Assembly (NCBI GenBank): GCA_003524145.1
Contig: DODZ01000035.1
Coordinates: 66,369 to 130,368, forward strand
Length of the DNA: 64,000 nt
Source of the DNA: Candidatus Apopatosoma intestinale
GTDB taxonomy: Bacteria > Bacillota > Clostridia > Oscillospirales > CAG-272
Direction: 5' to 3'
In this document: positions 12,701-35,991 of the stretch, piece by piece
Layout of the letters: each line of letters opens with the position of its first letter
Numbering within the stretch: position 1 is the first letter of the stretch
Made by a program: the position numbers and the translations under genes
The notes under the pieces: model-generated
The model's input: the letters and a program-made list of their open reading frames with translations, nothing else
The model's database searches: none
What the model was told of the DNA's origin: nothing

Positions 12701-12981
12701 GTGAGCGCACGGCGCATGAGAATCCTTTTTGCGCCGTTTTCTATGTATGTTTTGCAGATTCCGCCGTATCTGCGGAAAACAAAATCGCAGAGCCGAGTGA
12801 AGGTTATGATATCGAGATCTGCGCCGAGATTTCGCTTTGCCGCGGTGCGCTCGGCATTGACAGCCTCTCTGTCCGGCACGAGAAAATAGGCATGCCTGCC
12901 GCTTTGCGCCGATTTTTCGGCTATGTCAAAGAGAAGCTCGCTCTTTCCCGAGCCGCTTCTGCCGTATATGAAGCTGACCAT
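9724..12981 (-). CDS. addB: Helicase-exonuclease AddAB subunit AddB
   Basis: 1085 aa. Contains N-terminal P-loop GRSGSGKS, C-terminal RecB-type nuclease motif IADYKTG, and Fe-S cysteines (C...C near YIRCNFSYFC and CEYCKNKAIC). Confidence 0.9.
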   Translation of the reverse strand: MVSFIYGRSGSGKSELLFDIAEKSAQSGRHAYFLVPDREAVNAERTAAKRNLGADLDIITFTRLCDFVFRRYGGICKTYIENGAKRILMRRALTFLSPALSVYGGISDSDTNAVNELVKLRSDMMRGKVTPQALMAASEKLAENTRLCGKLSDIALISSKYDALVAEKYDDPDSALSEAADKLRAGGFFVGCDVFVDSFAFFTKEQYEIISEIFRQAENVCITLAYDPTEDAALAPFYNINETGRRLRASACENGCTTLPDTVLREAPRFSVPELSYLALNLWHEPNVKPKYEPKCNALRVICAANKTEEARAVACDIARRVRLGARYRDFAIISRRRDDYAGIIDAMLRSYEIPYFLSSRSDIMRLSPIRFVFAALEICRRGFTLENVTAYIKTGLLDIPDESLGLFETYITRWNIHGARFTDGAAWTMNPDGYGTVANEETERRLVEINSVKNAVIAPLHMFCAEAGKKQSVREHCRVLFDFISYMRIPEMTEKLCRALTDAGEAGIAAELSQAHGLICDMLDSLVACSGDTDVTCEGFTFMLRMMAQDKDVGNIPTSVDEVLITEAGASNSENVKHVYVIGAAEGVFPAAVTEESFFSEHEKKLLSDIGIDISTRLENKLADELFFFYSAVCSASDTLTVTYPRYISGEKASKCTPLRRMLEMFPKLREERFDDVPTAELIERPLPAMEYAASLSGALGEKLRAYFLSNEKYAPRLKYAGEPLSAKECRLTPECTGELFPERVNISYSRLEKYIRCNFSYFCDYELKIADCTRIKFGALDIGNFMHKLLEETAKFVLDSGEHDAAKTDAYIRSRAEEYLRKTAGGEDFISGRLRHISDKLCRSAAAFVSDMVHEFDQSGFRAVDFEAGIGTGEGSIPPMKLEDENGRVSLRGVIDRVDTLESDDGNLYVRIADYKTGTKTFDMNKIREGFDLQMLLYLFSVCENGERRYGKKPLPAGVLYIGVKPPQKSGHIGEEVEADFAPVKSGILINDEKVLREMERNLEGHFIPITEKNLASGKGLLTRGEFESLRGDVRNTVLAFAAKLRSGEACAAPVSDGDTDPCEYCKNKAICRAASKSRARRK

Positions 12982-19655: not shown

Positions 19656-22600
19656 ATGGCTGAAATAAAATGGACTGCGGCGCAGAGAGATGCTATTGAA
19701 GCGAGCGGCAGGAATATATATGTCGCGGCGGCGGCAGGCAGCGGAAAAACAGCCGTGCTGACGCGCAGAATAATAGAACGCATCTGCTCTCCCGGGATAC
19801 ACGCCGATATCTCGCGTATGCTGATAGTGACCTTCACGCGGGCTGCGGCGGACGAGCTGAGGGGAAGAATAGGCGCAGCAATAGAAGAGGAGAAGCTGAA
19901 AAGCCCCGACGACAGGCATCTGCGCAGGCAGGCTCTGCTTTTGCCATGTGCCAAGATAAGCACGGTGCACAGCTTCTGTCTTGACCTGATACGCGCAAAT
20001 TTCCGCGAGCTGGGCTTGCCGTCGGATTTTCATGCTGCGGATGAAACCGTGGAAAACCGCTTATTTTCCGATACGGCGGAGGAGCTTATCTCCGATTACT
20101 ACGATGGAAAAATAAGCGGGGAATACGCGATAGAGGATTTCCGCCTTTTTGTAAACACCTTCGGCAGTGCCACGGATGACGAGGCTCTGCAAAAAACCGT
20201 CGGTGCGCTTTACAGAAGTCTTTGCGATACGCCGGACGGGATAGAGTCGCTTTCTCATTATACGGAGCTTTATATGAGCGCCGCAAAGGCGGACTTCATG
20301 GCGACCCCTTGGGGCGAGCCGATAAAGCGATATCTATGCTCGGCTTTTAAATACTATGAGGAGATTTTCTCCCGCGCTCTGGCATATATCGGGGAAAATC
20401 CGGAGTATGCTCCCTATGAGGAGACGCTCTCGGGCGAGCTTGCGCTTCTGCGTTCGCTTGATGCCGGAAATATGGGCTATGACGAGCTTTGCGATAAGAT
20501 AAACGGCTATACGCCCGCGAAAATAGGCACACTCAGGCGCGGCACGGAAAAATCGCCCGAAATACTGTTTTTTGTCGCGCAGAGGGACGCTTTCAAGGCG
20601 GAAATGAAGAGCCTGCGCTCGGAATATTTCTGTTTTTCGGCGGCGGATATCGCGGCTTCATTTGAATTTACCGCGCGGGCGGCGGCAGACCTGAGGAGAT
20701 TTCTCCTGCTTTTTGACGCGCGTTTTTCGGAGGAGAAGCGGCGAAAGAAGCTGATAACTTTTGCCGATATGGAGCGCTATGCGCTCACTTTGCTCTGGGA
20801 CAGGAAAAACGATGCGAAGACCGATATCGCGTGTGCTGTTACGGAGCAGTTTGACGAGATATATGTTGATGAATATCAGGATATAAATGCTGTCCAGAAT
20901 AAAATATTTTCGCTTGTTTCGCGTGGCGACAATTTCTTTGCCGTCGGCGATATCAAGCAGAGTATATACGGCTTCCGCGGCGGCAGACCCGATATTTTCA
21001 AGGGGATGACCGACCGTGCAAAAAAGTACCGCGCCGATATGGGAGAGGGGGAGGCAAAGGTCTTTCTGTCCGAAAATTTCCGCTCCTGCTCCGAGGTTCT
21101 CGGTTATGCAAACAGGGTTTTCTCCAAGCTGATGAATGTCGAGGGGGCAAGCGGCTACGGTGAGGACGAGCGCCTTGTCTGCGGGAGGCGCGAGGGAAGT
21201 GCCCCTGCCGAAATCTGCGTGGTGGAGAAGGAAACGACAGCCGCCGACGATATTTCAAGCGAGGCTGATTATGTGGCGGCGAAAATCCGCTCGCTCATAG
21301 GTCAGCCGAAGCGTGACGGCGAGCTTATAAAGCCGGGCGATATTGCCATTCTTCTGCGCAGTGCCGAGCGGAAAGCACCGCAGTATGAGCGTGCGCTGAA
21401 AAAATACGGAATACCCTGCGAGAGCATGGGAACAGGGGATTTCTTTGAAAATCCCGAGGTTTTGCTCGCTTTTTCGCTTCTTAATACCGTAGACAATCCG
21501 TCGAAAGACGTTTACCTTGCGGCAACGCTGAAAAGCCCGCTTTACGGTGTTTCGCTCGACGAGCTGATATATATAAGAAGAAGCCACGGCGGCGGCTCAC
21601 TCTACGAGGCGCTGAAAAGCTTCACCGAGAGCACGGGCTTTGCAAAGGGGGAGCGTTTTCTCTCGGATAACGCGAAATACCGCGCGCTTGCATCCGCACT
21701 CCCTGCGGACAAGCTGATATGGCAGATTTATACCGAGACTGGGCTTCTTTGCCTGCCGAACGACACCGATACTGCCGGCAGGGAGATAGCAAGGGCAAAT
21801 CTCATGCAGCTTTACCGCTGGTCGATGGACTATGGCGGCGGAAATATATGCGGGCTTCATTCATTTCTCGGCTTTATAGAGGATGCCATCGAGAGCGGTA
21901 AAAAGATAACTCAGGAGGGCGCGGAGGAGCGCACAGACTGCGTAAAAATAACAACTATACATTCGAGCAAGGGGCTGGAATATCCGATTTGCTTCCTTTG
22001 CGACTGTGCCGCCGCCATATCGGATAAGGACGCGGCAAAAGGCGTGCTTTTCAGTCCGGAGCTCGGCATAGCACCGAAAATCCCTTCGGAAAACGGATTT
22101 TATCTGCTCGATACACCGCTCCGCCGCTCGCTTATATGCGCAAGGAGAACGGAAATATCTTTTGAGGAATCGCGCCTGCTCTATGTTGCCCTGACGAGAG
22201 CGCGTGAGCGTCTTTTCATAACGGCGCAGGTGCCCGCAAAAGCGAACGCCGCGACAGAGGATATATACGATACGGCACGCTCACCAGAATTTTCGATAAA
22301 GCATGATGCCTATTCTCTCTATCTGCTCGCCACGGCTCCGAACTATCTGAACATGCTGCTCTGTGCCTGCCCGTATGCTCCCGAAATGAAGCTGAAAACC
22401 GTCCGTGCGGAATTAAGCGGTGAGACGGCAGAGCATATCGCGGCGGTAACGCAGACAAATGACAATATCCTGCCGTATCAGGCGGAGGTCGCCGTACGCA
22501 GGCTTGATTTTGAATATGCATACGGAGATATGACAAAAATCCCATCGAAGCTTTCCGTATCAAAGCTTTATCCGACGATTTTCGACGAGGATGACGGTAG

Positions 22601-23237
22601 TGCTTCATATGAAAAGGCGACAACCGAAGAAGTCTCATCCGAGATAAAAATCCCGAAATTTCTCATGGACGAGCCGGATGAGGAAGCCACTGCGGCACAG
22701 CGCGGCACTGCGATGCATACCTTTATGCAGTTTGCCGATTTCGACAATGTCTACCGCAGCGGCATAGAGGCGGAAAGAGACCGCCTTGCAGAGCAGGGAT
22801 ATCTTTTTGCCTCGGACAGGGAAAAGCTCGATCTCGGGAGGCTTGCGGCATTTTTCTCGGGAGAAACGGCAAAGATGATACGAGAGGCGAAGCATGTATA
22901 TCGGGAGAAGCGTTTTCTCCTTAATTATCCCGCGTCGCTTTTCACCGAGGATGAGAAAAAGAAAAAGCTGTATGCAGGCGAAGAAGTGCTTGTTCAGGGA
23001 GTCATCGACTGCGTGATTTTCGATAAAAACGGCGAAGCGGTGCTCATAGATTATAAGACCGACAGCTTTCGCCGCGGCACTGACGCGGAGTATATAAGGG
23101 AAACGCTTCGCCGCCGTCACCGTCTGCAGCTCGGCTACTACAAATATGCCTGCGAGAAAATGTTCGGGAAACCCGTTTCCCACGTATTTATCTATTCGTT
23201 TGCCCTCGGCGATGCCGTGGAAATATATGATTTATAA
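19656..23237 (+). CDS. addA: Helicase-exonuclease AddAB subunit AddA
   Basis: 1193 aa. Contains UvrD/Rep helicase motifs (AAAGSGKT, VDEYQD, TIHSSKGLE) and the C-terminal RecB nuclease motif GVIDCV...LIDYKTD. Confidence 0.92.
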   Translation: MAEIKWTAAQRDAIEASGRNIYVAAAAGSGKTAVLTRRIIERICSPGIHADISRMLIVTFTRAAADELRGRIGAAIEEEKLKSPDDRHLRRQALLLPCAKISTVHSFCLDLIRANFRELGLPSDFHAADETVENRLFSDTAEELISDYYDGKISGEYAIEDFRLFVNTFGSATDDEALQKTVGALYRSLCDTPDGIESLSHYTELYMSAAKADFMATPWGEPIKRYLCSAFKYYEEIFSRALAYIGENPEYAPYEETLSGELALLRSLDAGNMGYDELCDKINGYTPAKIGTLRRGTEKSPEILFFVAQRDAFKAEMKSLRSEYFCFSAADIAASFEFTARAAADLRRFLLLFDARFSEEKRRKKLITFADMERYALTLLWDRKNDAKTDIACAVTEQFDEIYVDEYQDINAVQNKIFSLVSRGDNFFAVGDIKQSIYGFRGGRPDIFKGMTDRAKKYRADMGEGEAKVFLSENFRSCSEVLGYANRVFSKLMNVEGASGYGEDERLVCGRREGSAPAEICVVEKETTAADDISSEADYVAAKIRSLIGQPKRDGELIKPGDIAILLRSAERKAPQYERALKKYGIPCESMGTGDFFENPEVLLAFSLLNTVDNPSKDVYLAATLKSPLYGVSLDELIYIRRSHGGGSLYEALKSFTESTGFAKGERFLSDNAKYRALASALPADKLIWQIYTETGLLCLPNDTDTAGREIARANLMQLYRWSMDYGGGNICGLHSFLGFIEDAIESGKKITQEGAEERTDCVKITTIHSSKGLEYPICFLCDCAAAISDKDAAKGVLFSPELGIAPKIPSENGFYLLDTPLRRSLICARRTEISFEESRLLYVALTRARERLFITAQVPAKANAATEDIYDTARSPEFSIKHDAYSLYLLATAPNYLNMLLCACPYAPEMKLKTVRAELSGETAEHIAAVTQTNDNILPYQAEVAVRRLDFEYAYGDMTKIPSKLSVSKLYPTIFDEDDGSASYEKATTEEVSSEIKIPKFLMDEPDEEATAAQRGTAMHTFMQFADFDNVYRSGIEAERDRLAEQGYLFASDREKLDLGRLAAFFSGETAKMIREAKHVYREKRFLLNYPASLFTEDEKKKKLYAGEEVLVQGVIDCVIFDKNGEAVLIDYKTDSFRRGTDAEYIRETLRRRHRLQLGYYKYACEKMFGKPVSHVFIYSFALGDAVEIYDL

Positions 23238-24255: not shown

Positions 24256-25086
24256 ATGAAAAGAATTATCGCACTTGCTCTCACACTCGCAATGGCTTTC
24301 TCGCTTGTATTTGCTTTCTCATCATGCGGAAAGCAGGAAGAGAAGGAAAAGACGGCATATGAGGTTTACACTGAGGCACTGAAGAAAAACAACGAGCTTG
24401 ACTCATACGCGCTTGCCCTTGATATGAAAATATCCGTCTCGGCAGACGGTGTATCCACAGATGTCCCCATGACATATGATATCAAAGCTTCCGGCATAAA
24501 ATCCGGTTCGCCCGTATACAGCGCGGAGATGAAGATGTCAATGGCAGGCATGACTCTGACTATACCAATGTATTCCGACGGAAAATATGTTTACATGGAA
24601 ATGTTCGGGCAGAAGATAAAATCATCTGCCGATGACAGCGATGTTGATATGAAGAGCTTTACCGATCTTGTAGCCAAAATTCAGTCGGAAGAAAGCTTTG
24701 CCGGTGTTACCGTAACGGAAAACGAGGATGGCTCAAAGAGCATGGAGATAGCGTTAAAGAGCGCCGATTTCAATGAAGCCTACGGTGATCTTCTTGATGC
24801 TCTGCTCGGCAGTCTCGGCGAGGAACTGAACGGCGTCGGCGTTTCCATGACCGCCAATGACGCAAAGCTTGCCGTCACCATAAACAAGAGCGGATATATC
24901 GAAAAGGTCGGACTCAAGAGCGATGTCAAGGTAACCATGACAATTGAGGGTGAGAACAGCGAGATGAACGTTTCTCTCGACATAAGCGGTGAATACAAGA
25001 ATATAGGTGAGACTGTAGTCGTTACACCGCCCGCAGACCTTGATTCTTACAAAGAAAAAGAAGCAGACGACAGCGATATTTTCTGA
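24256..25086 (+). CDS. Putative lipoprotein
   Basis: 276 aa. The signal peptide ends in lipobox FSSC (MKRIIALALTLAMAFSLVFAFSSCGK). The remainder is a hydrophilic Ser/Asp/Lys-rich mature domain. Confidence 0.8.
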   Translation: MKRIIALALTLAMAFSLVFAFSSCGKQEEKEKTAYEVYTEALKKNNELDSYALALDMKISVSADGVSTDVPMTYDIKASGIKSGSPVYSAEMKMSMAGMTLTIPMYSDGKYVYMEMFGQKIKSSADDSDVDMKSFTDLVAKIQSEESFAGVTVTENEDGSKSMEIALKSADFNEAYGDLLDALLGSLGEELNGVGVSMTANDAKLAVTINKSGYIEKVGLKSDVKVTMTIEGENSEMNVSLDISGEYKNIGETVVVTPPADLDSYKEKEADDSDIF

Positions 25087-25104: not shown

Positions 25105-25130
25105 AAAAGGCGGCGCTTGCCGCTTTTTAT
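25105..25130 (+). terminator. Rho-independent terminator after the lipoprotein gene
   Basis: AAAAGGCGGC-gctt-GCCGCTTTTT. Confidence 0.5.
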
Positions 25131-25208: not shown

Positions 25209-25523
25209 TTATTTCTTCATCTCATCATATATATTTTTGAGTATAGAAGCGGCAAGCAGAGTGCCGACGGCACAAGCCATGATGGCACGCTTTATGCGAA
25301 TTCTGCGCATGAGAGCATTATACTGCCCGATAGTATTTGCCGCCTGCTCGCAGACCTCGGAAACCCTATCCTGCTTTGCCTTGCTTGTGCGGATGCTCTT
25401 TAAGTATTTTCTGCATTCGGGGCATTCCTTGAGATGCTCCGCCACAAATTTCATTCCCGCGTCCGAGAGAGATTTCTCATCATAGAGCAGGATAAGGTCG
25501 TGCATTACTTCACATGGTATCAT
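25209..25523 (-). CDS. Zinc-finger (zf-HC2) anti-sigma factor
   Basis: 104 aa. The N-terminus carries CEVMHDLILLY...H-x3-C-x2-C (HLKECPEC). There is a single C-terminal TM segment. It overlaps the sigma gene by 14 nt. Confidence 0.8.
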   Translation of the reverse strand: MIPCEVMHDLILLYDEKSLSDAGMKFVAEHLKECPECRKYLKSIRTSKAKQDRVSEVCEQAANTIGQYNALMRRIRIKRAIMACAVGTLLAASILKNIYDEMKK

Positions 25524-26007
25524 TTTTGATAGCCTCCTTTAAAATTTTTTTGGCTCTGTAAAATATTACTTTTGCCGAATTTTCGGATATGCCGAGGTTT
25601 GCGGCGATTTCCGAGAAGGGCAGGTCTGCATATATTCGCAGAAAAACAACATCCTTGTAGTTTTTCGGCAGTTCTTTTATAAAACGGTTTACCTTTTCGG
25701 CGGCGAGTTTCTTTTCCAAAACTTCATACGGCTGCGCGGAGGAATCGTCATCGCTTGTCACAAGCAGGTCGATATCGACTGTTTCCACCTTGCTTTTACG
25801 CAGGTATTTGAAATATACATTTTTCGCTATCGCGGCAAGGTAGGTGAAAATACTGCTGTTCCCCCTGAATTTATGAAAGGAAAGATATGCCTGAAAGAAA
25901 GTTTCCTGCGTCATTTCCTCGCAGAGGTCATGATTACGGCAGATTTTATAGAGGAAAGAGTAAACGCGCGGATAATATTCTTTATAAAGCTTTTCAAAAT
26001 CGTTCAT
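25510..26007 (-). CDS. ECF-type RNA polymerase sigma-70 family factor
   Basis: Start trimmed to ATG at 26007 (MNDFEKLYKEYYPRVYSFLYKI), which is preceded by AAGGAGAG. Regions 2 and 4 are recognisable (EEMTQETFFQAY; DLPFSEIAANLGISENSAKVIFYRAKKIL). Confidence 0.9.
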   Translation of the reverse strand: MNDFEKLYKEYYPRVYSFLYKICRNHDLCEEMTQETFFQAYLSFHKFRGNSSIFTYLAAIAKNVYFKYLRKSKVETVDIDLLVTSDDDSSAQPYEVLEKKLAAEKVNRFIKELPKNYKDVVFLRIYADLPFSEIAANLGISENSAKVIFYRAKKILKEAIKNDTM

Positions 26008-26078
26008 GCGCCGCTCTCCTTTCTCTTTTTTCTTCATTATAAGCCGCAAATATAACTGTGTCGTGTCCGCTTTGTAAA

Positions 26079-26915
26079 TTATTCTCCCGTGTAGAGACTT
26101 TTTAAAAGCGAAATTTCGGCGGCATAGCCGTCAAGCTCATTCGGTGTTTCGAGTATAAAAGGAAGTCCCTGCAGGGCGGGATGATTGATTATTCTTGCCA
26201 GCGCTTCCGTGCCTATCTTGCCCTCGCCTATCTTGGCATGCCTGTCTTTATGCGAAAGGAAGCCGTACATGCTGTCATTGAGATGGACGGCTTTGAGGCG
26301 CGAGAGTCCTATCACGCGGTCAAACTCCGCGAGCACGCCGTCGGGATTGCCTAAGATATCGTAGCCGCCGTCATAGATATGGCAGGTATCGAGGCAAACG
26401 CCGAGCTTGCAGCTTTTTTCCACGCGGTCGATTATCTCGCGCAGCTCCTCGAAACGCCCGCCGACCTCCGAGCCTTTTCCCGCCATTGTTTCGAGCAGGA
26501 CGGTAGTTGTCTGGGTATCGGTAAGAATCTTATTCAGCATATCGGAAATCTGCGCTATACCGGTTTCCGTCCCTTGTCCCGTATGGGCGCCGGGATGGAA
26601 ATTATAGTAGTTTCCGGGGGTGTATTCCATTCTCCTCAGGTCGTCGCGCATCGTATTTTCGGCGAAAACACGTGTTGCTTCCGCGGAAGAGCATGGGTTG
26701 AGCGTATAAGGCGCATGGGCGACGAGATTTTTTATATCGTGCTCCTCTGCAAAGGCGAGGAAAGCCGCGATATCGCCCTCGTCTATAGCCTTCGCCGCGC
26801 CTCCTCTCGGATTTCGCGTGAAGAAGGCAAATGTGCCTGCGCCTATTTTCGCGGCGGTTTTTCCCATTTCGAGATAGCCCGCCGAGGAGGAAAGATGGCA
26901 TCCTATTCTAAGCAT
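26079..26915 (-). CDS. nfo: Deoxyribonuclease IV (endonuclease IV)
   Basis: 278 aa. Contains [35 protein letters not shown] and [13 protein letters not shown], the hallmark Nfo motifs. Confidence 0.9.
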
Positions 26916-26926
26916 AATTTTTCCTT

Positions 26927-29161
26927 TCAGCTCATTTTGGACATCTGGCGCTGAGCCATTACGAGATTATAATATATGCCCTTCTTTTCGAGCAGTTCGT
27001 TATGTGTGCCGATTTCGGCAATCTTGCCCTTGTCCAGCACAACAAGCTTTGTCGCATTTCGCAGGGTAGAGAGCCTGTGCGCTATGGCGATGGTGGTGCG
27101 GCGCTCCGTGAGCTTCTGCAGGGCATCCTGAATATTCTTTTCGGTTTCCGTGTCGAGAGAGGCTGTAGCCTCGTCGAGAATGAGAATTTTCGGATTGTGA
27201 AGCATCGCGCGGGCGATGGAAATGCGTTGCTTTTCGCCGCCGGAGAGCGTCTGTCCGCGCTCGCCGATATATGTATTATATCCGTCGGGAAGCTTCATTA
27301 TAAACTGATGTGCGCCCGAAACCTTTGACGCCGCGATGACCTCCTCGTGGGTAGCATCGGGCTTGGCATATGTGATATTGTCAAAGACGGTACCGTGGAA
27401 AAGATAATTTTCCTGAAGCACAACGCCGATATTGCGCCGCAGCATCTCCTGCGACATATCGCGTATATCCGTGCCGTCTATTTTTATCACACCGTCATCG
27501 ACATCGTAGAGACGCATGAGCAGGTTTATCAGAGTGGATTTGCCCGCGCCGCTCTTGCCGACGATGCCTATCATATCGCCCTTATGTATCTCGAGGTTGA
27601 TATTTCGCAGGACATCCGCGGAATCCTCATAGCCGAATGAAACATTCTCAAATGAGATATTGCCCTCTATCTCACCTATTCCGTTCTTTTCTCCGTCGGT
27701 GATATCGCTTGTCTCATCGAGAAGCTCAAACACCTTGGAAATCGAAGTTATAAACGAGACGAGACGGCGCGGTATATTCGTAAACCAGCGCATACGGGCA
27801 TAGATTATTGTGATATATGACGAAAACTGCATCATTGTACCGAGTGTCATCTCGCCCGAGAGAATTTTATTTCCCGCATAGTAGAGCAGGAAAAATTCAC
27901 CTATACCCATGGCAAAGTTGAGCACCGGCGAGATTATCGAGAAGAAAACATCGTTTTTTATCGAGATTTTGCGGAGCTCGTCCGCACTTGCATCATAGCG
28001 CTTAGCCTCGCTTCTCTCCATGCCGAAGCTCTTTACCACGCGGATACCGTTGAAAATATCGTGCAGTATGGTGCTTGTATTAGATGCCTTTGTCCACTGC
28101 TTGTGATAATTTCTGCGGGTGAAATTCCAGAAGGAATAGAACCCGACGAAAACGAACGGGAAGGGCAGGAATATGAGAAGTCCGAGCTTCCAGTCAAAAC
28201 GGAAGATTATCACGGAGACCCATATCATTATCGTCAGCTGATAGATAAGCTCGGGTATCATGCCGGTCAGCTGATTCTGAATTTCGCGCGTGTCGCTGTT
28301 GACGCGTTCCATCAGCTCGCCCGTCTGCTTCTTTGAAATTTTGCCGTAGGAGAGCGAGGTAATCTTGTCGAAAACGAGGGTACGCAGTCGCTTTGATATA
28401 TTGGTGCCCGCATAGGCGTTTGTGACGCCGCGAGCCATGCGGCAGAGTCTTGCCACCTGATTTGCAAGGAAAAGCCCGAGCACGACAAGCGCAAATGATT
28501 GCCATGTTATAGCTGTGGGATTCGGCGATTTGATGTAATCATCGACCATTACGGCATTGAGCCGCGGGATGAGAACATTGAGTCCCGCTGTAGCCAGTAT
28601 CATGAGGGTGGAGAGCAGGATCTTGTATTTTTCCGATGCCGCCACCTTTAAAAGGCGTCTGATATTTCCCCTTGTATCGGTGCAGTGCGAGCATATTTTT
28701 GAGCGGTTTGTATATGGACGCCCGCATTTCGGGCAGACGCTCTCGATATCCTTTTCATCACGCAAGGATATCTCTTTGCCGCCTATGTGGCGATTCATCT
28801 GCTTTGCGATGACGGAGAGCTCATGCAGCTTTGCCATGGTACTGCGGGCAAGAATCCTGTCGTGCCCCTTGTATACGCACTCAAATGTGACACAGCCGAA
28901 GTCGGCGGAATATTTGAATTCCGATATATCGGAGAGAGGAAGCTCCTCTTTGCCGCTTTCGTTATATATGGCAAGTATGTCTTCATACATTACGACAAAG
29001 CCCTGCTTAAGCTCGGAATCAAAGGTCAGGTCCGTTGCCATTATCAGCTTTATCTTATCCCCGTCGATATCGGGATCGCGCTTGCGGAGCTGTGAAATAA
29101 GGCGCTTATTTCTTTTTTCTATATTGCCGGATCCCGCATTAGGCGGCTGACCGGCAGGCAT
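26927..29161 (-). CDS. ABC exporter, fused permease/ATPase, with an N-terminal cytoplasmic domain of about 170 aa plus a zinc ribbon
   Basis: Start moved to ATG at 29161 (MPAGQPP), which follows GGAGG with an 8-nt spacer. The ORF-track start is a TTG inside the RBS. The N-domain contains PLSDIS and [18 protein letters not shown]. Six TM segments follow, then Walker [18 protein letters not shown] and [12 protein letters not shown]. Confidence 0.9.
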
Positions 29162-29207
29162 TTTATTATCCTCCAAGGAAAATCATCTCCTTTCCGTGTG
29201 AGGCTTT

Positions 29208-29747
29208 TTACAGATAGATACTGATTATGCGGCGGCTCTTTTTATCGAGCGCATCGACATCCTTTATCTCATATCTGTTTGCGTTTGAATCGGTGAGGAA
29301 GATGTGCGTGGGCGAGAGGCGTACTATACTGCGGTATGTATCGCGGAAGGTTATTTCCAGCGAGCCCGCGTCGCTCTCTATCTTCCAGTAGGAGAAGCCG
29401 AAGCGTTCCTTTATCGAATGAATTTTTGTTATCTGCGGAATGAAATATTTCTTTGCAAGCTCCGCGCGGAAAATGTCCTGCGTTGCTTCGTCAAAATCCG
29501 ATATTTTCTCTATGATTCCTATTTCCTTATTGTCGCGGTCGAGCACGGAAATATATGAAAAAGGCTCGTCATAAGGGAAGGCTCTGTGCAGGAAAACTCT
29601 GTCGTATTCCGCTTTTTCGCCGTTTTTATCGAGAGCGAGCGAAAGTATGCCGCCGCTTTCCGTAAAGTGCGAGTTATCCTTATTCAGATAGAAAAGCTCG
29701 GCTACATTTTCGAGCGAAAGCTCGTTTGTTTTTGTTTCTGTCGGCAT
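29208..29747 (-). CDS. DUF1854 domain-containing protein
   Basis: 179 aa. Contains VFLHRAFPYDEPFSYISVLD...EIGIIEKISDF...RYEIKDVDALDKKSRRII, which I recognise as the ABC-associated DUF1854 family. RBS AGGAGGG is present. Confidence 0.8.
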   Translation of the reverse strand: MPTETKTNELSLENVAELFYLNKDNSHFTESGGILSLALDKNGEKAEYDRVFLHRAFPYDEPFSYISVLDRDNKEIGIIEKISDFDEATQDIFRAELAKKYFIPQITKIHSIKERFGFSYWKIESDAGSLEITFRDTYRSIVRLSPTHIFLTDSNANRYEIKDVDALDKKSRRIISIYL

Positions 29748-29764
29748 TTTTATCCCTCCTTTTG

Positions 29765-32056
29765 TCAGCTGTCGACGCCGATATTCTTCAGCGCTTCAAG
29801 CTGGAGTCTGTAAAGCTTGTTGTAGATGCCGTCCTTCTTGGCGAGAAGCTCGTTGTGCGTTCCGGATTCGGGCATTTTGCCGTCCTCTATCACTATCAGC
29901 TTATCCGCGCCGCGCAGGGTAGAGAGCCTGTGCGCGATGATGACGGTGGTTTTATCCTTTGTGAGCGCGTCGAGCGAATTCTGGATAAGGCGCTCTGTCT
30001 GCGTGTCCATCGCCGCTGTGGCTTCATCAAGGATAAGAATCTTCGGGTCCTGAAGTATGGCGCGCGCTATGGAAACTCTCTGGCGCTCGCCGCCCGAGAG
30101 ATTTTTCTCTCCCTCACCTATCACGGTGCTGTATGCTTCGGGCAATTTCATTATGAAATCATGCGCGCCCGACATTTTTGCCGCGCGGATGACCTCCTCA
30201 TGAGTTGCATCGGGCTTAGCATATTTGATATTATCGTATATTGTGCCGATGAAAAGATAGGTCTCCTGCGAAACTATGGCGATATTTTTGCGCAGGTCGG
30301 AAAAGGCGATATCCTTTATATTTATGCCGTCTATAGTGACTTCACCGTCCTCGGGATCATAGAGACGCACGAGCAGATTTGCAAGCGTGGATTTGCCCGC
30401 GCCTGTGTGCCCGACAATGCCGAGCGTCTTGCCTGCCGGAATATCGAAAGAAACACCGTCGATTATTCTGCGGTTTTTCTCATATGAGAAAACGACATTT
30501 CTGAAGGCAACATCTCCGCGCAGATTTTCGAGATGCACGGGGTTTTCGCTCTCGCGAACCTCCGGCTCCGCATCCATTATTTCAAAAAGACGAGAAGCGG
30601 CGTTTGTAAATTCCGAGGTGAAGCCTATGACATCCACCATTCCGTCGAGCGGATTGTGCACCATGCCCGTGTATGAAATGAAAAGGGCAAGGGTACCGTA
30701 TGTCATTTTTCCCTGTATTACCATCCAGCCGCCGACGCCCCATACGAGGTATGTGCATATTGTCAGCAGGGAATAGACGCAGGGATAGACTATTGTGCCG
30801 TAGATATTTGCTTTGCGGGTATTTTCCGCGAGGCGCTTGTTTCTTGAATCAAAGCGCTTTATCTCATCCTTTTCCTTTGAGAATGCCTTCACAAGGCGGA
30901 AGCCGGTGATAACATCCGATAGCAGTGAGCTGAGACTTTTCGAGCTGGAATAGCGCTTGTTGTAGAGCTTTTCGTCCGTATCGAAGATGCGCTTTAAACA
31001 TACGATGAATACGGGAATGAGAAACAGCGCGCAGACTGAAAGGGATGCATTGGTCATAAACATTATCGCAATGATGGCGATAATCTGGATACCGTTTACG
31101 AGCACCCACGGCAACCCGTCCGTGAAGAACCAGTTCATCGAGTTTGCATCGCTGTTTACCTGCGTCATGAGCCCGCCTGTCTGCCTGTTTGTGAAGAACG
31201 AGAGAGAGAGGCGTTTTATTGCTCCGAAGATGGTTTTTCGCAGGTCATAAACTATATCTGCGCCGACTATGGACATGATAGCCTGATTTCCGATATCGAA
31301 AAGCACGGAAACTATGCGCGATATCACAATCAGTGAGATGACAAGCCCTACCTTACCGTAATACGAGCTGCCGGCGGATTTGTCGAGTACATTATCGTAG
31401 AAAAACGCTGATCCTATGTATGTGGAAGCGACGCCGAGCACCGCCATCAGTGCCATAAGAAGCACGACGACGGTTATTTTCCATTTATATCGCTTGAAGA
31501 AAATTCCCATGCGGAAGATAAGCTTGCGCTTCTCCATGCATTTCGGGCAGATTTTCCTGTTCGGATCGGGATATATCGTACCGCATTTCGGACAGCAGTT
31601 GTCCTTTTCCTTTACCTTGAAGCCTTCAAGATTGCCATGTTCCTTCAGCTCCTCTACAGCCTTTTTCATATCATAGACACTGTCCTTCGATATGTTAGAG
31701 GAGACTATCAGAGTGGCGTTTCCTCCGCCTGCCGTTCTTGCCGAGAGGCGGACGCCCGAGATGAAGGTATCGACATTCAGCCCGGAGATATCCGAGAGAG
31801 GGAATACCTCATAGCGCGTCTCACGGAAATCCGAGGCGAGAGCGCGGTGACCTTTTGCCGCAGGGTTTGCGGGAATTATAGCTGTGATTCCCTCAAGAAT
31901 TTCGAGTCTGTCCTCAAAGAGGAATGCAAATGCCTCGCGGGGCATACCGTCGCATGAGCGGTCTGTCCCGAGGGCAACGAGTATGGCATCGGTATCAACG
32001 CCCTTTTCGCGCAGAAAACCGATGGCGTTCTGTGAAAATTTATTGAGTGAAAGCAA
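29765..32056 (-). CDS. ABC exporter, fused permease/ATPase, with an N-terminal cytoplasmic domain of about 200 aa plus a zinc ribbon
   Basis: Start moved to TTG at 32056, preceded by GGAGGTG with a 5-nt spacer. The ORF-track ATG at 32116 has no RBS. The N-domain contains PLSDIS and CPKCGTIYPDPNRKICPKC. TM domain follows, then GHTGAGKST, LSGGERQR and [12 protein letters not shown]. Confidence 0.88.
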   Translation of the reverse strand: MLSLNKFSQNAIGFLREKGVDTDAILVALGTDRSCDGMPREAFAFLFEDRLEILEGITAIIPANPAAKGHRALASDFRETRYEVFPLSDISGLNVDTFISGVRLSARTAGGGNATLIVSSNISKDSVYDMKKAVEELKEHGNLEGFKVKEKDNCCPKCGTIYPDPNRKICPKCMEKRKLIFRMGIFFKRYKWKITVVVLLMALMAVLGVASTYIGSAFFYDNVLDKSAGSSYYGKVGLVISLIVISRIVSVLFDIGNQAIMSIVGADIVYDLRKTIFGAIKRLSLSFFTNRQTGGLMTQVNSDANSMNWFFTDGLPWVLVNGIQIIAIIAIMFMTNASLSVCALFLIPVFIVCLKRIFDTDEKLYNKRYSSSKSLSSLLSDVITGFRLVKAFSKEKDEIKRFDSRNKRLAENTRKANIYGTIVYPCVYSLLTICTYLVWGVGGWMVIQGKMTYGTLALFISYTGMVHNPLDGMVDVIGFTSEFTNAASRLFEIMDAEPEVRESENPVHLENLRGDVAFRNVVFSYEKNRRIIDGVSFDIPAGKTLGIVGHTGAGKSTLANLLVRLYDPEDGEVTIDGINIKDIAFSDLRKNIAIVSQETYLFIGTIYDNIKYAKPDATHEEVIRAAKMSGAHDFIMKLPEAYSTVIGEGEKNLSGGERQRVSIARAILQDPKILILDEATAAMDTQTERLIQNSLDALTKDKTTVIIAHRLSTLRGADKLIVIEDGKMPESGTHNELLAKKDGIYNKLYRLQLEALKNIGVDS

Positions 32057-32201
32057 TTTTTCACCTCCGTTTTTATCGTGCCGTGCCGCATTATACGATT
32101 GCGGTGCAAGGCACACTCAGATGTGAACGGATGAGCTGAAACGGCGCTCACCCTTTGCGTATGAAAGTCGAGTGTATTTTGAGAGACGAGGCACAGCCCG
32201 C

Positions 32202-33572: not shown

Positions 33573-34268
33573 ATGGCTAATTTAGGTGCAAAAATTCTCG
33601 TGATAGACGACGACCCCAATATCTGCGAGGCTGTAAGAGTTTATCTCGCAAACGAAGGCTACGAGGTCATCACGGCAAACGACGGATACGAGGGCGTGGC
33701 GTCTTTCAAGGCGTATAATCCCGACCTCGTGCTTCTTGATATAATGATGCCGAAAAAGGACGGCTGGCAGGTCTGCCGCGAAATACGCGAAGTTTCCTCC
33801 AAGCCGATAATCATGGTCACGGCAAAGGGAGAGGTCTTTGACAAGGTGCTCGGGCTGGAGCTGGGCGCGGACGATTTCATGGTGAAGCCCATAGATATGA
33901 AGGAACTCTCCGTCCGCATAAAGGCGGTACTTCGCCGCTGTCAGAGCACTGCCGATAAGGACGATGAGGAGTGCGTAAAATATGAAAATCTCGAGGTTTC
34001 GCGTCAGAAATACGAGCTGAAAATCAACGGTAAGCCCGTTGACACGCCTCCGAAGGAGCTGGAGCTGCTCTATTTTCTCGCTTCACATCCCAACCATGTT
34101 TTTACAAGAAATCAGCTTCTCGACAAGGTATGGGATTTTGATTATCTCGGCGACTCGCGCACGGTGGACGTCCATATCAAGCGTCTGCGCGAAAAGCTGG
34201 ACGGCGTCAGCGACAAATGGACGATACGAACGGTACACGGAATCGGATACAAATTTGAAGTGCTTTGA
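33573..34268 (+). CDS. OmpR-family response regulator
   Basis: 231 aa. The receiver is canonical (DDD, LLDIMMP, T at VTAKG, KP). The winged-helix output domain is also present. Confidence 0.92.
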   Translation: MANLGAKILVIDDDPNICEAVRVYLANEGYEVITANDGYEGVASFKAYNPDLVLLDIMMPKKDGWQVCREIREVSSKPIIMVTAKGEVFDKVLGLELGADDFMVKPIDMKELSVRIKAVLRRCQSTADKDDEECVKYENLEVSRQKYELKINGKPVDTPPKELELLYFLASHPNHVFTRNQLLDKVWDFDYLGDSRTVDVHIKRLREKLDGVSDKWTIRTVHGIGYKFEVL

Positions 34269-34310
34269 TAATCACAGCGTGGCTGTGTGCAGTTTTGCTT
34301 TCCGCTTTTT

Positions 34311-34517
34311 CTTTTGAAGAAGCAGGCTCAAAAGAAAAAGCTTAGAAAAAGAAAACGCCGATATTAGATTTCGCGCTCTGCGGAGCGCTGCCCAGTCTCG
34401 GCGACGGCTCACGCCTGCCTTTTAAAAAAGGCAGGAGCGAAAACTTTCGGTTGGCATTACTACGAGCACAAAATTCTAAAAGTGTAATCGGCAGAATCAA
34501 GTGGATTCTGCCTTTTG
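34311..34517 (+). other. Structured spacer of four hairpins between the response regulator and histidine kinase genes (REP/MITE-like or attenuator)
   Basis: Four hairpins: CTTTTGA...TCAAAAG (34311-34334); GCGCTC-tgcg-GAGCGC (34373-34388); CCTGCCTTTT-aa-AAAAGGCAGG (about 34414-34435); GGCAGAATC-aagtg-GATTCTGCC followed by TTTTG (34490-34517). Confidence 0.4.
34490..34517 (+). terminator. Terminator-like hairpin inside the two-component operon
   Basis: 9-bp stem GGCAGAATC/GATTCTGCC, 5-nt loop, then TTTTG. It sits 26 nt upstream of the kinase start codon. Confidence 0.45.
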
Positions 34518-34542
34518 CGGTTAATAAGCAGGGAGAAAAATT

Positions 34543-35991
34543 TTGAAAAACAGTATTTTTACAAGGTATATTTCAGCTTTTCTCATAATTATTTTCATCA
34601 GCTTCACGATACTTGTAACCGTGGTCAGCTCGATGACTATACAGTCTGAAACAAACAGCAAGAAGCAGCTCGCCATGACGACCGCCGACTATGTGACGGA
34701 ATATATCCGCATGGGTATGAACGAGATACCGGCGCCGGTTTCTTTTGAAAGATATGTGGCATATAAATCCGCGGATATTTCAAAAACAGTCAATATTCTT
34801 TCGGGTAACACCGAAAAGATGACTGTATTCATTACTACGCTTGACGGCAATGTGCTCATCTCCACAGACGGCAGCTTCTCCGGCAGGATAACCGACGGAA
34901 AATCGCTTTCCGTAATTGCGGGAGGCGAGGATTCGCTTATCTACGGCAATATGGGCGGCGTTCTCTCAAAGACGAGCGGGATATATATAAAGCATATCAT
35001 CACGCCGAGAACGAGCGACGCGGCAGGTGCAGTTGTCGTCTGCTTTTCAACCGGAGAGGCGGAGGCGTTGACCTTCAAGGCAGTGCGTACCATAGTTCTT
35101 GTCAGTCTCTGGATAATGATAGTCAGTTTCACGGCAATCTATTTCATCACGGAGCGCACGGTATCTCCGCTGAAGCAGATGAGCCGTGCGACAAAACAGT
35201 TTGCAAACGGCAAATTTGACGTGTGTATACCGGTTCGGGGAAACGATGAGATAGCCGATCTTGCCATAGCCTTCAATACCATGGCGGAATCGCTCTCGAA
35301 GCAGGAATATATGCGAAGCACATTCCTTGCCAATGTATCGCATGATCTGCGCACGCCGATGACGACGATATCGGGATTTATCGACGGAATTCTCGACGGC
35401 GCGATACCGCCGGAGAAGCAGGATTATTATCTCGGGGTGATAGCGCAGGAGGTAAGGCGTCTTTCGCGGCTTGTTTCGTCACTTCTCGACATTTCGAGAA
35501 TACAGGCGGGCGACCGCAAGTTCACAAAGGCGGATTTCGATATATGCGAAATGGCGCGTCTGATACTGATTTCCTTTGAGGCGAAAATAGACGAAAAGAA
35601 GCTCGATATAGATTTCGATGCGCCGGATGCGCTCATGGCTTATTCCGACAAGGATGCGGTTTATCAGGTGCTCTACAATATCTGCGATAACGGCATGAAA
35701 TTCTCGCGCGAGGGCGGCAAATTCCGCATAGCGATAAAAGATGACAGCGAAAATGTAGCTGTTTCCGTATATAACGAAGGAGTCGGTATATCCGAGGCGG
35801 ATTTGCCTTACGTATTCGACAGGTTCTATAAGAGCGATAAGAGCCGCGGACTGGACAAGACAGGAGTCGGGCTCGGGCTCTATATCTGCAAGACGATAAT
35901 AGACAGTCTCGGCGGCAAAATATTCGTAAAGAGCGAATACGGAAAATACTGCGAATTTACGATAATACTCGAAAAGGGCGGCAGGAGCTGA
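34543..35991 (+). CDS. Sensor histidine kinase (2 TM, HAMP, HisKA, HATPase_c)
   Basis: 482 aa. TTG start is preceded by GGGAG. Contains H-box FLANVSHDLRTP, N-box NICDNGMKFS, G1 YNEGVGI and G2 GVGLGLYI. Confidence 0.9.
   Translation: MKNSIFTRYISAFLIIIFISFTILVTVVSSMTIQSETNSKKQLAMTTADYVTEYIRMGMNEIPAPVSFERYVAYKSADISKTVNILSGNTEKMTVFITTLDGNVLISTDGSFSGRITDGKSLSVIAGGEDSLIYGNMGGVLSKTSGIYIKHIITPRTSDAAGAVVVCFSTGEAEALTFKAVRTIVLVSLWIMIVSFTAIYFITERTVSPLKQMSRATKQFANGKFDVCIPVRGNDEIADLAIAFNTMAESLSKQEYMRSTFLANVSHDLRTPMTTISGFIDGILDGAIPPEKQDYYLGVIAQEVRRLSRLVSSLLDISRIQAGDRKFTKADFDICEMARLILISFEAKIDEKKLDIDFDAPDALMAYSDKDAVYQVLYNICDNGMKFSREGGKFRIAIKDDSENVAVSVYNEGVGISEADLPYVFDRFYKSDKSRGLDKTGVGLGLYICKTIIDSLGGKIFVKSEYGKYCEFTIILEKGGRS

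What the first reader, a model, noticed from the sequence alone, without database searches (positions are those of the whole stretch)
26927..32056. ABC - DUF1854 - ABC exporter module whose two half-transporters share a cytoplasmic N-domain plus zinc ribbon
Seen in sequence: two paralogous fused permease/ATPase genes flank a 179-aa DUF1854 gene, with gaps of 17 and 46 nt. Both ABC proteins carry an extra soluble N-terminal region of 170-200 aa before TM1. The two regions share an (F/M)(F/Y)ED-L-I block and the identical motif PLSDIS. Each ends in a four-Cys ribbon (CPKCGTIYPDPNRKICPKC and [18 protein letters not shown]). Endonuclease IV follows 11 nt downstream, and an ECF sigma/anti-sigma pair 71 nt after that, all on the same strand. 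Established knowledge: heterodimeric type I ABC exporters are common. DUF1854 is an uncharacterised family repeatedly found beside ABC ATPases. Inference: the N-domains look like PH-like/beta-sandwich ligand or partner sensors, with DUF1854 as a soluble accessory or substrate-presenting subunit. This would be a regulated exporter of unknown cargo, and no function is established for the architecture.
Basis: partly seen in the sequence, partly recalled or inferred. Interest (0 to 1): 0.6.

Follow-up and report, generated by a model that had tools for sequence, protein, structure and literature searches.

The report
Two-subunit ABC exporter with DUF1854 partner
This is a real three-gene membrane export pump, conserved in many gut Clostridia, whose two subunits each carry an extra PH-like domain and zinc ribbon inside the cell and work with a small partner protein (DUF1854); it is a two-subunit variant of a little-studied pump family that in soil bacteria is linked to cyanophycin-synthetase genes, and its cargo is still unknown.

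Summary
On the minus strand lie ABC1 (29765-32056), DUF1854 (29208-29747) and ABC2 (26927-29161), with gaps of 17 and 46 nt. Both ABC proteins have about 180-190 soluble residues before TM1, ending in CxxC-N11/10-CxxC.

The N-regions are real, homologous domains (hhalign E 3e-29). AlphaFold models one confidently (pLDDT 88), and all top 50 Foldseek PDB hits are PH/PTB domains. The ribbon is kept in 75/75 ABC1-type and 69/70 ABC2-type orthologues.

The order ABC1-DUF1854-ABC2 holds in every complete locus among 80 Clostridia genomes. No other neighbour is conserved. nfo and the ECF sigma pair are linked only in the closest relatives.

The module is not unprecedented. A Ralstonia ABC + DUF1854 pair next to cphA/cphA' has the same N-domain and ribbon. 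It is the NCBIfam 'cyanophycin metabolism-associated' family. Price et al. proposed from mutant cofitness that DUF1854 is a subunit of that exporter. The window's proteins score below those family cut-offs, and no cphA lies nearby.

Natural ABC::DUF1854 fusions show that DUF1854 is a cytoplasmic subunit at the NBD end. Verdict: a new two-subunit variant of a known, uncharacterised exporter kind, with unknown cargo. Interest is moderate.

The parts
29765..32056 (-). ABC1: fused N-domain / permease / ATPase half-transporter. It is 763 aa from the TTG at 32056; the longest ORF starts at a GTG at 32116.
   Evidence: ORF listed. The Shine-Dalgarno sequence GGAGGTG lies before the TTG. Pfam ABC_membrane scores 125 bits and ABC_tran 120 bits. 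The ABC1-type orthologue lies upstream of DUF1854 in 78 of 80 loci.
31622..32032 (-). ABC1 N-terminal PH-like domain (N1). It carries an insertion of about 23 residues relative to N2.
   Evidence: Profile-profile match to N2 has probability 99.8%, E 2.8e-29. The fold is inferred from the N2 model. There is no Pfam family for it.
31538..31594 (-). ABC1 four-Cys zinc ribbon, CPKCGTIYPDPNRKICPKC.
   Evidence: Coordinates checked. CxxC-N11-CxxC is present in 75 of 75 ABC1-type orthologues, always 19 residues long. Weak matches to Pfam zinc-ribbon families.
30650..31462 (-). ABC1 transmembrane domain (ABC exporter fold).
   Evidence: Pfam PF00664 covers residues 219-489 in 783-aa numbering. Hydrophobic segments appear only from about residue 190.
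30014..30460 (-). ABC1 nucleotide-binding domain with all motifs canonical.
   Evidence: Pfam PF00005. Motifs are [24 protein letters not shown] and IAHR. DEAT and AHR are kept in all 78 orthologues, and the D-loop reads AAMD.
29208..29747 (-). DUF1854 protein, 179 aa and soluble. The predicted model has two beta-rich modules, each ending in a helix.
   Evidence: Pfam PF08909, 132 bits. NCBIfam NF052234 scores 93 bits, below the cut-off of 150. AF2 model has pLDDT 86.4. No hydrophobic segment. Fused to the ABC C-terminus in P0181, P0237, P0249 and P0260.
26927..29161 (-). ABC2: paralogous fused N-domain / permease / ATPase half-transporter. It is 744 aa from the ATG at 29161, with an alternative TTG at 29176.
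   Evidence: ORF listed. The Shine-Dalgarno sequence GGAGG lies before the ATG. Pfam ABC_membrane scores 139 bits and ABC_tran 122 bits. NCBIfam NF052233 scores 534 bits over residues 39-746, which includes the N-domain. The ABC2-type orthologue lies downstream of DUF1854 in 75 of 80 loci.
28784..29128 (-). ABC2 N-terminal PH-like domain (N2): an N-terminal helix, seven strands and a long C-terminal helix.
   Evidence: AF2 with a 40-sequence alignment gives pLDDT 88.1 and pTM 0.72. All top 50 Foldseek PDB hits are PH/PTB domains. Four of 40 family members hit Pfam bPH_3 weakly.
28682..28735 (-). ABC2 four-Cys zinc ribbon, [18 protein letters not shown]. The model places a helix after it that leads into TM1.
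   Evidence: Coordinates checked. Present in 69 of 70 ABC2-type orthologues. The four Cys are invariant in alignment A4. Model helix 163-177 follows the ribbon.
27797..28621 (-). ABC2 transmembrane domain.
   Evidence: Pfam PF00664 covers residues 186-460 in 749-aa numbering.
27161..27610 (-). ABC2 nucleotide-binding domain with all motifs canonical.
   Evidence: Pfam PF00005. Motifs are [24 protein letters not shown] and IAHR. They are conserved in 65 of 68 orthologues, and the D-loop reads ASLD.

Best explanation
The three genes encode one self-contained export machine.

What it is
- ABC1 and ABC2 are paralogous half-transporters of the MsbA/Sav1866-type exporter fold. They most likely pair as a heterodimer with two fully competent ATP sites.
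- Each subunit carries a cytoplasmic PH-like domain at its N-terminus. A four-Cys zinc ribbon and a short helix tie this domain directly to TM1.
- DUF1854 is a soluble cytoplasmic third subunit. It sits at the NBD end of the transporter, mainly with ABC1.

Shown
- The domain make-up and the PH-like fold.
- The conserved ribbon.
- The strict three-gene synteny.
- The natural ABC::DUF1854 fusions.
- Homology to the cphA-linked beta-proteobacterial system.

Inferred
- The PH-like domains and DUF1854 together form a cytoplasmic docking platform under the transporter.
- This platform recognises the cargo (or the enzyme that makes it) and hands it to the translocation pathway. ATP hydrolysis at both sites then drives export.
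- By homology with the cphA/cphA'-cofit system, and because PH/PTB folds typically bind peptides, the cargo is most likely a peptide-like or amino-acid-derived polymer or oligomer made in the cytoplasm.
- In these Clostridia no synthetase is linked, so the identity of the cargo is open.
For: Domain architecture
- Both ABC proteins match Pfam ABC_membrane and ABC_tran.
- Walker A, the signature motif, Walker B with the catalytic Glu, and the H-loop are canonical in both paralogues. This holds in essentially all orthologues.

N-domains
- N1 and N2 are homologous.
- The N2 model has pLDDT 88 and a PH/PTB fold.
- The ribbon is kept in 75/75 and 69/70 orthologues, and in 141 of 147 library hits.
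- In 386 representative proteins the domain is always at the N-terminus of ABC proteins about 730-990 aa long.

DUF1854 as a subunit
- It lies between the ABC1-type and ABC2-type genes in all 80 Clostridia loci.
- In Clostridium sp. Marseille-P299 it is fused to the C-terminus of ABC1 and followed by ABC2.
- Stand-alone single-gene fusions also exist.
- DUF1854 distances track the ABC1 core (partial r 0.42) more than the ABC2 core (0.17).

Self-contained module
- No neighbour is conserved in more than 17 of 80 loci.
- No flanking small ORF is conserved.

Link to polymer export
- In Ralstonia a single ABC carries the same N-domain and ribbon, pairs with DUF1854, and lies divergent from cphA/cphA'.
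- DUF1854, the ABC transporter and cphA/cphA' are cofit in Acidovorax and Cupriavidus (Price et al., 10.1101/072470).

Precedent
- PH-domain proteins are required for ABC export of a leaderless bacteriocin (PMC8657885).
Against: - No physical interaction, stoichiometry or transport direction was tested. No multimer prediction could be run.
- Heterodimer formation is inferred only from co-inheritance. Both NBDs are canonical, so two homodimers are not excluded.
- No cphA or other synthetase lies in the window or within +/-10 kb in any of the 80 loci. The window's proteins also fall below the NF052233/NF052234 cut-offs. Transferring the cargo from the beta-proteobacterial system is therefore weak.
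- The fold class of DUF1854 is unresolved. The best Foldseek PDB hit has E 0.013 and TM about 0.25.
- The N-domains evolve fast, with 29-36% mean identity against about 60% for the cores. That fits either a variable ligand or relaxed constraint.
Confidence: 0.55

Rival explanations
1. Regulatory reading. The PH-like/zinc-ribbon domains and DUF1854 do not touch the cargo. They gate the ATPase in response to a cytoplasmic signal or partner. This would resemble trans-inhibition by the C-terminal regulatory domains of MetN/MalK, or the FHA domains of Rv1747 (established knowledge). The cargo would then be recognised in the transmembrane domain.
For: The accessory modules sit next to the elbow helix/TM1 and at the NBD C-terminus, which are positions suited to controlling NBD closure. 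The N-domains diverge quickly while the cores are conserved. No cargo gene is linked.
Against: Nothing here separates this reading from cargo recognition. No ligand-binding motif was found. In beta-proteobacteria the system is cofit with polymer synthetases, which fits a dedicated cargo pathway at least as well.
Confidence: 0.25
2. Cyanophycin-system reading. The module is the Clostridial counterpart of the cphA-associated exporter and handles cyanophycin or a cyanophycin-like polyamide made by a cphA encoded elsewhere in the genome.
For: NF052233 and NF052234 are the best NCBIfam matches for both ABC proteins and for DUF1854. The N-domain + ribbon + DUF1854 architecture is shared with the Ralstonia cphA-linked locus. 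The genetic link is reported by Price et al..
Against: Scores are far below the equivalog cut-offs: 534 and 511 against 880, and 93 against 150. No cphA homologue lies in the 64-kb window or in any of the 80 loci. Single-ABC + DUF1854 pairs and single-gene fusions also occur without cphA nearby. ABC1, ABC2 and the Ralstonia ABC are equidistant at about 35% identity.
Confidence: 0.15
3. Two-pump reading. ABC1 and ABC2 each form a homodimer, giving two separate exporters that share an operon. DUF1854 would serve only ABC1.
For: Both NBDs are fully canonical, unlike many heterodimeric Firmicute exporters. Homodimeric single-gene relatives exist. DUF1854 co-varies mainly with ABC1.
Against: The two paralogues are co-inherited in a fixed order in every complete locus. 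ABC2 keeps its own N-domain and ribbon. The D-loops differ between the two types and each is conserved, AAMD in ABC1 and ASLD in ABC2. Where DUF1854 is fused to ABC1, ABC2 still follows directly.
Confidence: 0.12
4. Generic pump reading. This is a multidrug or lipid (MsbA-like) exporter, and the PH-like domains only anchor to membrane lipids.
For: After NF052233, the next-best NCBIfam matches are MsbA and related lipid or drug exporters. Many eukaryotic PH domains bind lipid head-groups (established knowledge).
Against: A dedicated soluble subunit, strictly conserved and sometimes fused, is not a feature of generic drug pumps. The beta-proteobacterial homologue has specific cofitness with synthetase genes.
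Confidence: 0.08

Closest known systems
NCBIfam NF052233 / NF052234: cyanophycin metabolism-associated ABC transporter + DUF1854 protein (beta-proteobacteria; Price et al., bioRxiv 10.1101/072470)
   Same: The architecture is the same: N-terminal PH-like region with a GWLVVTNRRLV-type strand, a CxxC...CxxC ribbon, ABC_membrane, ABC_tran, and an adjacent downstream DUF1854 gene. These are the best NCBIfam matches for all three window proteins, and for ABC2 the match runs through the N-domain.
   Different: That system has one ABC gene (a homodimer), whereas here two 35%-identical paralogues flank DUF1854. It is linked divergently to cphA/cphA'; here no cphA lies within 64 kb or in any of the 80 related loci. 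The window's proteins score well below the equivalog cut-offs. The host is gut Clostridia, not Burkholderiales.
Heterodimeric Firmicute/Thermotoga ABC exporters (TM287/288, BmrCD, LmrCD; established knowledge)
   Same: Two adjacent paralogous half-transporter genes with the same exporter fold.
   Different: Those have one degenerate ATP site and no accessory domains. Here both sites are canonical in essentially all orthologues. Both subunits carry a PH-like + zinc-ribbon N-domain, and a third subunit is present.
ABC exporters with N-terminal cargo-recruiting domains: PCAT peptidase C39 domain and the HlyB C39-like domain (established knowledge)
   Same: A cytoplasmic domain precedes TM1 of an exporter-fold half-transporter. 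This is a plausible functional analogue for cargo capture.
   Different: The fold is different. Matches to the HlyB and bacteriocin-ABC models start only after their N-terminal domains, at profile position about 136-160. There is no Peptidase_C39 match. The fold here is PH-like.
Wzt C-terminal carbohydrate-binding domain of O-antigen ABC transporters (established knowledge)
   Same: An extra beta-rich domain attached to the C-terminus of the NBD recognises a polymer before export. This parallels the DUF1854 position in the natural fusions.
   Different: Wzm/Wzt belongs to a different ABC transporter class, with the permease and ATPase on separate chains. No sequence or fold relationship was found. 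This is an analogy only.
PH-domain accessory proteins DdE/DdF of the enterocin DD14 leaderless-bacteriocin ABC export system (PMC8657885)
   Same: Bacterial PH-domain proteins are required for ABC-mediated export of cytoplasmic peptides.
   Different: DdE and DdF are separate proteins of other bPH families in a bacteriocin cluster. Here the PH-like domains are fused to the transporter, and no peptide gene is linked.

Membership tests
ABC exporter half-transporter (Pfam PF00664 + PF00005) | Six-helix ABC_membrane domain followed by an ABC_tran NBD in one chain | tested here: met
   Both proteins score well above the gathering cut-offs: 125 and 139 bits, and 120 and 122 bits.
ABC exporter half-transporter (Pfam PF00664 + PF00005) | Canonical Walker A, signature LSGGQ-like motif, Walker B with catalytic Glu, and H-loop His | tested here: met
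   The window proteins carry GxxGx[16 protein letters not shown] and IAHR. The motifs are conserved in 78/78 ABC1-type and 65/68 ABC2-type orthologues.
Pfam PF08909 DUF1854 | Score above the gathering cut-off of 26.8 bits | tested here: met
   132.4 bits, E 1.2e-38, covering profile positions 1-128 of 130.
NCBIfam NF052233 cyanophycin metabolism-associated ABC transporter (equivalog) | Whole-protein score of at least 880 bits | tested here: not met
   ABC2 scores 534 bits and ABC1 511 bits. The Ralstonia control scores 1460 bits.
NCBIfam NF052233 cyanophycin metabolism-associated ABC transporter (equivalog) | N-terminal soluble domain plus CxxC...CxxC ribbon before TM1 | tested here: met
   The Ralstonia member has CPTCKAPLPPSEDNCPQC after a PH-like region. 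The ABC2 match to the model covers profile positions 30-747.
NCBIfam NF052233 cyanophycin metabolism-associated ABC transporter (equivalog) | Genomic association with cyanophycin synthetase genes | tested here: not met
   tblastn with Ralstonia CphA and CphA' finds nothing in the window or in the 80 related loci. Whole genomes could not be examined.
NCBIfam NF052234 cyanophycin metabolism-associated DUF1854 protein (equivalog) | Score of at least 150 bits | tested here: not met
   93.3 bits. The Ralstonia control scores 234 bits.
Heterodimeric ABC exporters with one degenerate ATP site (TM287/288 / BmrCD type) | One NBD lacks the catalytic Glu and the partner signature motif is degenerate | tested here: not met
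   Both NBDs are canonical across the orthologues.
Heterodimeric ABC exporters (general) | The two chains physically pair | not testable with these tools
   Only co-inheritance in a fixed order is available. No multimer prediction or biochemistry was possible.
PH-like fold / bacterial PH domain (Pfam bPH_3, PF14470) | Seven-strand beta-sandwich capped by a C-terminal helix | tested here: met
   The AF2 model has seven strands across 39-107 followed by helix 109-126. All top 50 Foldseek PDB hits are PH/PTB domains, with probability 1.0 and best E 4.5e-4.
PH-like fold / bacterial PH domain (Pfam bPH_3, PF14470) | Sequence match above the Pfam gathering score | tested here: not met
   The window domains give no match. 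Only 4 of 40 family members match weakly, best E 0.004.
Zinc ribbon | Two CxxC knuckles that bind zinc | tested here: inconclusive
   The four Cys are invariant, and 33 of 40 members match Pfam zinc-ribbon families weakly. Metal binding itself cannot be tested here.
PCAT / T1SS ABC with N-terminal C39 or C39-like domain | Peptidase_C39-fold N-terminal domain | tested here: not met
   No C39 match was found. Alignments to the HlyB and bacteriocin-ABC models begin after their N-domains.

The most novel reading that the evidence does not exclude
The PH-like N-domains, their zinc ribbons and the two-module DUF1854 protein together form a previously undescribed kind of cytoplasmic cargo-receiving cage on an ABC exporter. 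In gut Clostridia this heterodimeric version would secrete a still-unknown peptide-like or polyamide product. Its synthesis genes are unlinked. That would make it a widespread, unrecognised secretion route in the gut microbiota, distinct from the cphA-linked system.
Probability: 0.2. Interest if true: 0.65.

Novelty: new variant of a known kind. Interest (0 to 1): 0.42.

Why it matters
Cytoplasmic accessory domains decide what ABC exporters carry, and few kinds are understood. This family pairs a PH-like + zinc-ribbon N-domain with DUF1854. It has database names and one genetic hint, but no biochemistry or structure.

The three-gene version is present in at least 326 species-level genomes. The 80 examined are all Clostridia, mostly gut or rumen MAGs. 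It is also encoded in a cultured isolate, Clostridium sp. Marseille-P299. Natural fusions fix where the subunits sit.

This gives a concrete, tractable target:
- Define the complex.
- Find the cargo.
- Test whether 'cyanophycin metabolism-associated' is too narrow a name for the wider family.

Tried and rejected
1. Word-indexed protein searches with the N2 domain alone and with a 62-sequence N2 profile returned only fragments. The exhaustive profile search was needed instead.
2. Homology between the N-domains and DUF1854, or between the two DUF1854 modules, was tested by hhalign. All probabilities were below 1%, so the idea that they are sequence-related repeats is rejected.
3. Foldseek of the DUF1854 model against the PDB found nothing significant. 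The best hits were HIN-200 and Rtt106 tandem barrels at E 0.013 and TM about 0.25. 'Tandem PH-like' therefore remains only a reading of the secondary-structure order.
5. Sequence search of solved structures gave nothing for DUF1854 or the N-domain.
7. Searches for linked genes found nothing:
   - No conserved neighbour.
   - No conserved flanking small ORF.
   - No cphA.
   - No Rfam element near the operon.
8. A functional link to nfo and the ECF sigma pair is rejected, because the adjacency is limited to L001-L005.
9. Metagenome scans to sample non-Clostridial contexts failed. The alignments were too diverse, and a single query found no relatives.
10. The mirror-tree and same-locus similarity tests gave only weak signals.
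11. The idea that the N-termini are annotation artefacts is rejected.

Full report
**Observation**

The region holds three co-oriented minus-strand genes.
- ABC1 runs 29765-32056. The longest ORF starts at a GTG at 32116, but the TTG at 32056 is preceded by GGAGGTG.
- DUF1854 runs 29208-29747.
- ABC2 runs 26927-29161. Its ATG is preceded by GGAGG, and there is an alternative TTG at 29176.

Pfam finds ABC_membrane + ABC_tran in both large proteins and PF08909 in the small one. Downstream lie endonuclease IV, an ECF sigma factor and a zf-HC2 anti-sigma factor. Upstream lies YchF.

The membrane domain starts near residue 199 of ABC1 and 181 of ABC2. No hydrophobic segment lies before that. Both four-Cys motifs and PLSDIS are present. 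The shared block is really [L/M][F/Y]ED.L.I.

**Are the N-terminal regions real?**

Yes, on four grounds.
- N1 and N2 match by BLASTP at E 2e-10. Profile against profile they match at probability 99.8%, E 2.8e-29.
- In 80 related loci the regions stay open and alignable. CxxC-N11-CxxC is present in 75 of 75 ABC1-type proteins, and a ribbon in 69 of 70 ABC2-type proteins.
- An exhaustive profile search of 1.84 billion representative proteins finds 386 relatives at E <= 1e-3. The domain is always at the N-terminus, and full-length members are ABC proteins of 728-990 aa. Of the 147 listed hits examined, 141 have the ribbon.
- AlphaFold2 with a 40-sequence alignment gives pLDDT 88.1 and pTM 0.72. 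The model has an N-terminal helix, seven strands (39-107), a long helix (109-126), the ribbon, and a helix (163-177) leading into TM1.

All 50 best Foldseek PDB matches are PH or PTB domains, including Rtt106, GRK2, TBC1D23 and CCM2, with best E 4.5e-4. Pfam has no family for the domain. Only weak zinc-ribbon hits appear, and bPH_3 is hit weakly in 4 of 40 members.

**Is the three-gene arrangement meaningful?**

A scan of one genome per GTDB species with a DUF1854 alignment found 326 loci. The best 80 are all Clostridia and all but two are labelled MAGs, many by sample name from gut, faecal or rumen material. Two near-identical hits are labelled uncultured Ruminococcus sp. and Acutalibacteraceae. 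The window therefore probably comes from such an organism.

- In every locus with complete flanks, an ABC1-type gene precedes DUF1854 and an ABC2-type gene follows it. Each ABC gene has its own type of N-domain. The duplication therefore predates the divergence of these lineages.
- Nothing else is conserved. The commonest neighbour is present in 17 of 80 loci. Neighbours include MoxR, RadA, SpoIVA and DD-carboxypeptidases.
- nfo, the sigma/anti-sigma pair and YchF accompany the module only in the five closest relatives.
- No flanking small ORF is conserved, and no Rfam element is present.

**Relation to what is known**

NCBIfam's best matches are NF052233 and NF052234, 'cyanophycin metabolism-associated' ABC transporter and DUF1854 protein. 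All three window proteins score far below the cut-offs: 534 and 511 against 880, and 93 against 150.

A true member was found on a Ralstonia wenshanensis megaplasmid. It is a single 768-aa ABC gene plus DUF1854, divergent from two cphA genes, and passes both cut-offs. Its N-terminus has the same layout: a PH-like stretch followed by CPTCKAPLPPSEDNCPQC. The N-domain + ribbon + DUF1854 combination is therefore family-wide, not special to this window.

The only paper in the library that mentions DUF1854 is Price et al. (10.1101/072470). It reports cofitness of DUF1854 with the ABC transporter and cphA/cphA' in Acidovorax and Cupriavidus. It proposes a subunit of an exporter for an amino-acid polymer, and notes occasional fusions.

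ABC1, ABC2 and the Ralstonia ABC are mutually about 35% identical. No cphA homologue lies in the window or in any of the 80 loci.

**What DUF1854 is**

- It has no hydrophobic segment.
- AlphaFold gives a confident model (pLDDT 86.4). It has two beta-rich modules (26-99 and 105-176), each ending in a helix, but with uncertain mutual orientation (pTM 0.55).
- Foldseek finds no significant PDB match. hhalign shows no relation to the N-domains or between the two halves. Its fold class stays open.
- Its place in the complex is clearer. Four library proteins are PH-ribbon-TMD-NBD-DUF1854 fusions.
- In Clostridium sp. Marseille-P299 the fusion is ABC1::DUF1854, followed directly by ABC2. Two other fusions stand alone. 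A further lineage has a single ABC + DUF1854 without cphA.
- DUF1854 is therefore a cytoplasmic subunit at the C-terminal (NBD) end, primarily of ABC1. A crude mirror-tree test agrees, with partial r 0.42 for ABC1 against 0.17 for ABC2.

**Mechanism**

Both NBDs keep every catalytic motif in essentially all orthologues. The D-loops differ between the two types and each is conserved, AAMD in ABC1 and ASLD in ABC2.

The best-supported picture is a heterodimeric exporter with two active ATP sites. Two membrane-proximal PH-like domains are held by zinc ribbons next to TM1. DUF1854 sits at the NBD end.

I infer that these modules form a docking platform for the cargo or its synthetase. Three points support this:
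- The homologous system is genetically tied to polymer synthetases.
- PH/PTB folds commonly bind peptides (established knowledge).
- Bacterial PH-domain proteins are needed for ABC export of a leaderless bacteriocin (PMC8657885).

A purely regulatory role for these modules is not excluded, nor is the formation of two homodimers. The cargo in Clostridia is unknown.

**Verdict**

The system is a two-subunit, cphA-unlinked Clostridial variant of a known but uncharacterised exporter family. Interest is moderate: it is a good structural and functional target, not a surprise.

Noticed in passing
window 25209-26915 (-): Endonuclease IV (nfo, 26079-26915), an ECF sigma factor (25510-26007) and a zf-HC2 anti-sigma factor (25209-25523) follow ABC2 on the same strand. 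The gap to nfo is only 11 nt. A terminator-like hairpin appears only after the anti-sigma gene (25110-25123). The adjacency is found only in the five closest relatives, L001-L005.
   Followed up: partly
L084 (ENA scaffold, 1305 bp) / protein P0002: From the ribbon onward the scaffold is 98% identical to window 28380-28739. Upstream it carries an unrelated N-domain-like sequence and a gene end that looks like PEP carboxykinase by eye (not scanned) in place of DUF1854. This is either a chimeric assembly or a real N-domain swap.
   Followed up: partly
L028 5970-7187 (Clostridiales bacterium DTU064): A 405-aa gene sits between DUF1854 and ABC2. ABC2 there starts in the middle of its PH-like domain. 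This looks like a disrupted copy of the module.
   Followed up: no
protein P0123 and 6 of 147 N-domain hits: A few family members have the PH-like N-domain but lack the four Cys, so the ribbon can be lost.
   Followed up: no
window 31538-32032 and 28682-29128; loci L001-L080: N1 and N2 from the same genome are slightly more alike than N1 and N2 from different genomes (0.150 against 0.136 identity in the PH part; 0 of 2000 permutations reached this). The identical PLSDIS in both paralogues is specific to this lineage. This may hint at concerted evolution or a shared partner, or it may reflect composition.
   Followed up: partly
window 30014-30460 and 27161-27610; orthologues: The D-loops differ consistently between the paralogues: AAMD or ASMD in ABC1-type and mostly ASLD in ABC2-type. 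This is a conserved asymmetry in otherwise canonical NBDs.
   Followed up: partly
window 9724-12981 (-) and 19656-23237 (+): AddB-like and AddA-like helicase-nuclease genes lie on opposite strands about 6.7 kb apart. GyrB/ParE-like (14760-16760) and GyrA/ParC-like (16782-18974) genes lie between them. AddAB genes more commonly form one operon.
   Followed up: no
window 24256-25086 (+): A DUF6612 protein whose N-terminus looks like a lipoprotein signal (reading by eye), convergent with the anti-sigma gene. A response regulator (by eye; not scanned) and a probable histidine kinase (33573-35991, +) lie divergent from ychF.
   Followed up: no
loci L044-L046, L071 and others: D-Ala-D-Ala carboxypeptidase genes (Peptidase_S11 or VanY) lie just upstream of the module in about 14 of 80 loci, and SpoIVA lies just downstream in 9. 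This is a weak hint of a cell-envelope or sporulation context, well short of conserved linkage.
   Followed up: partly
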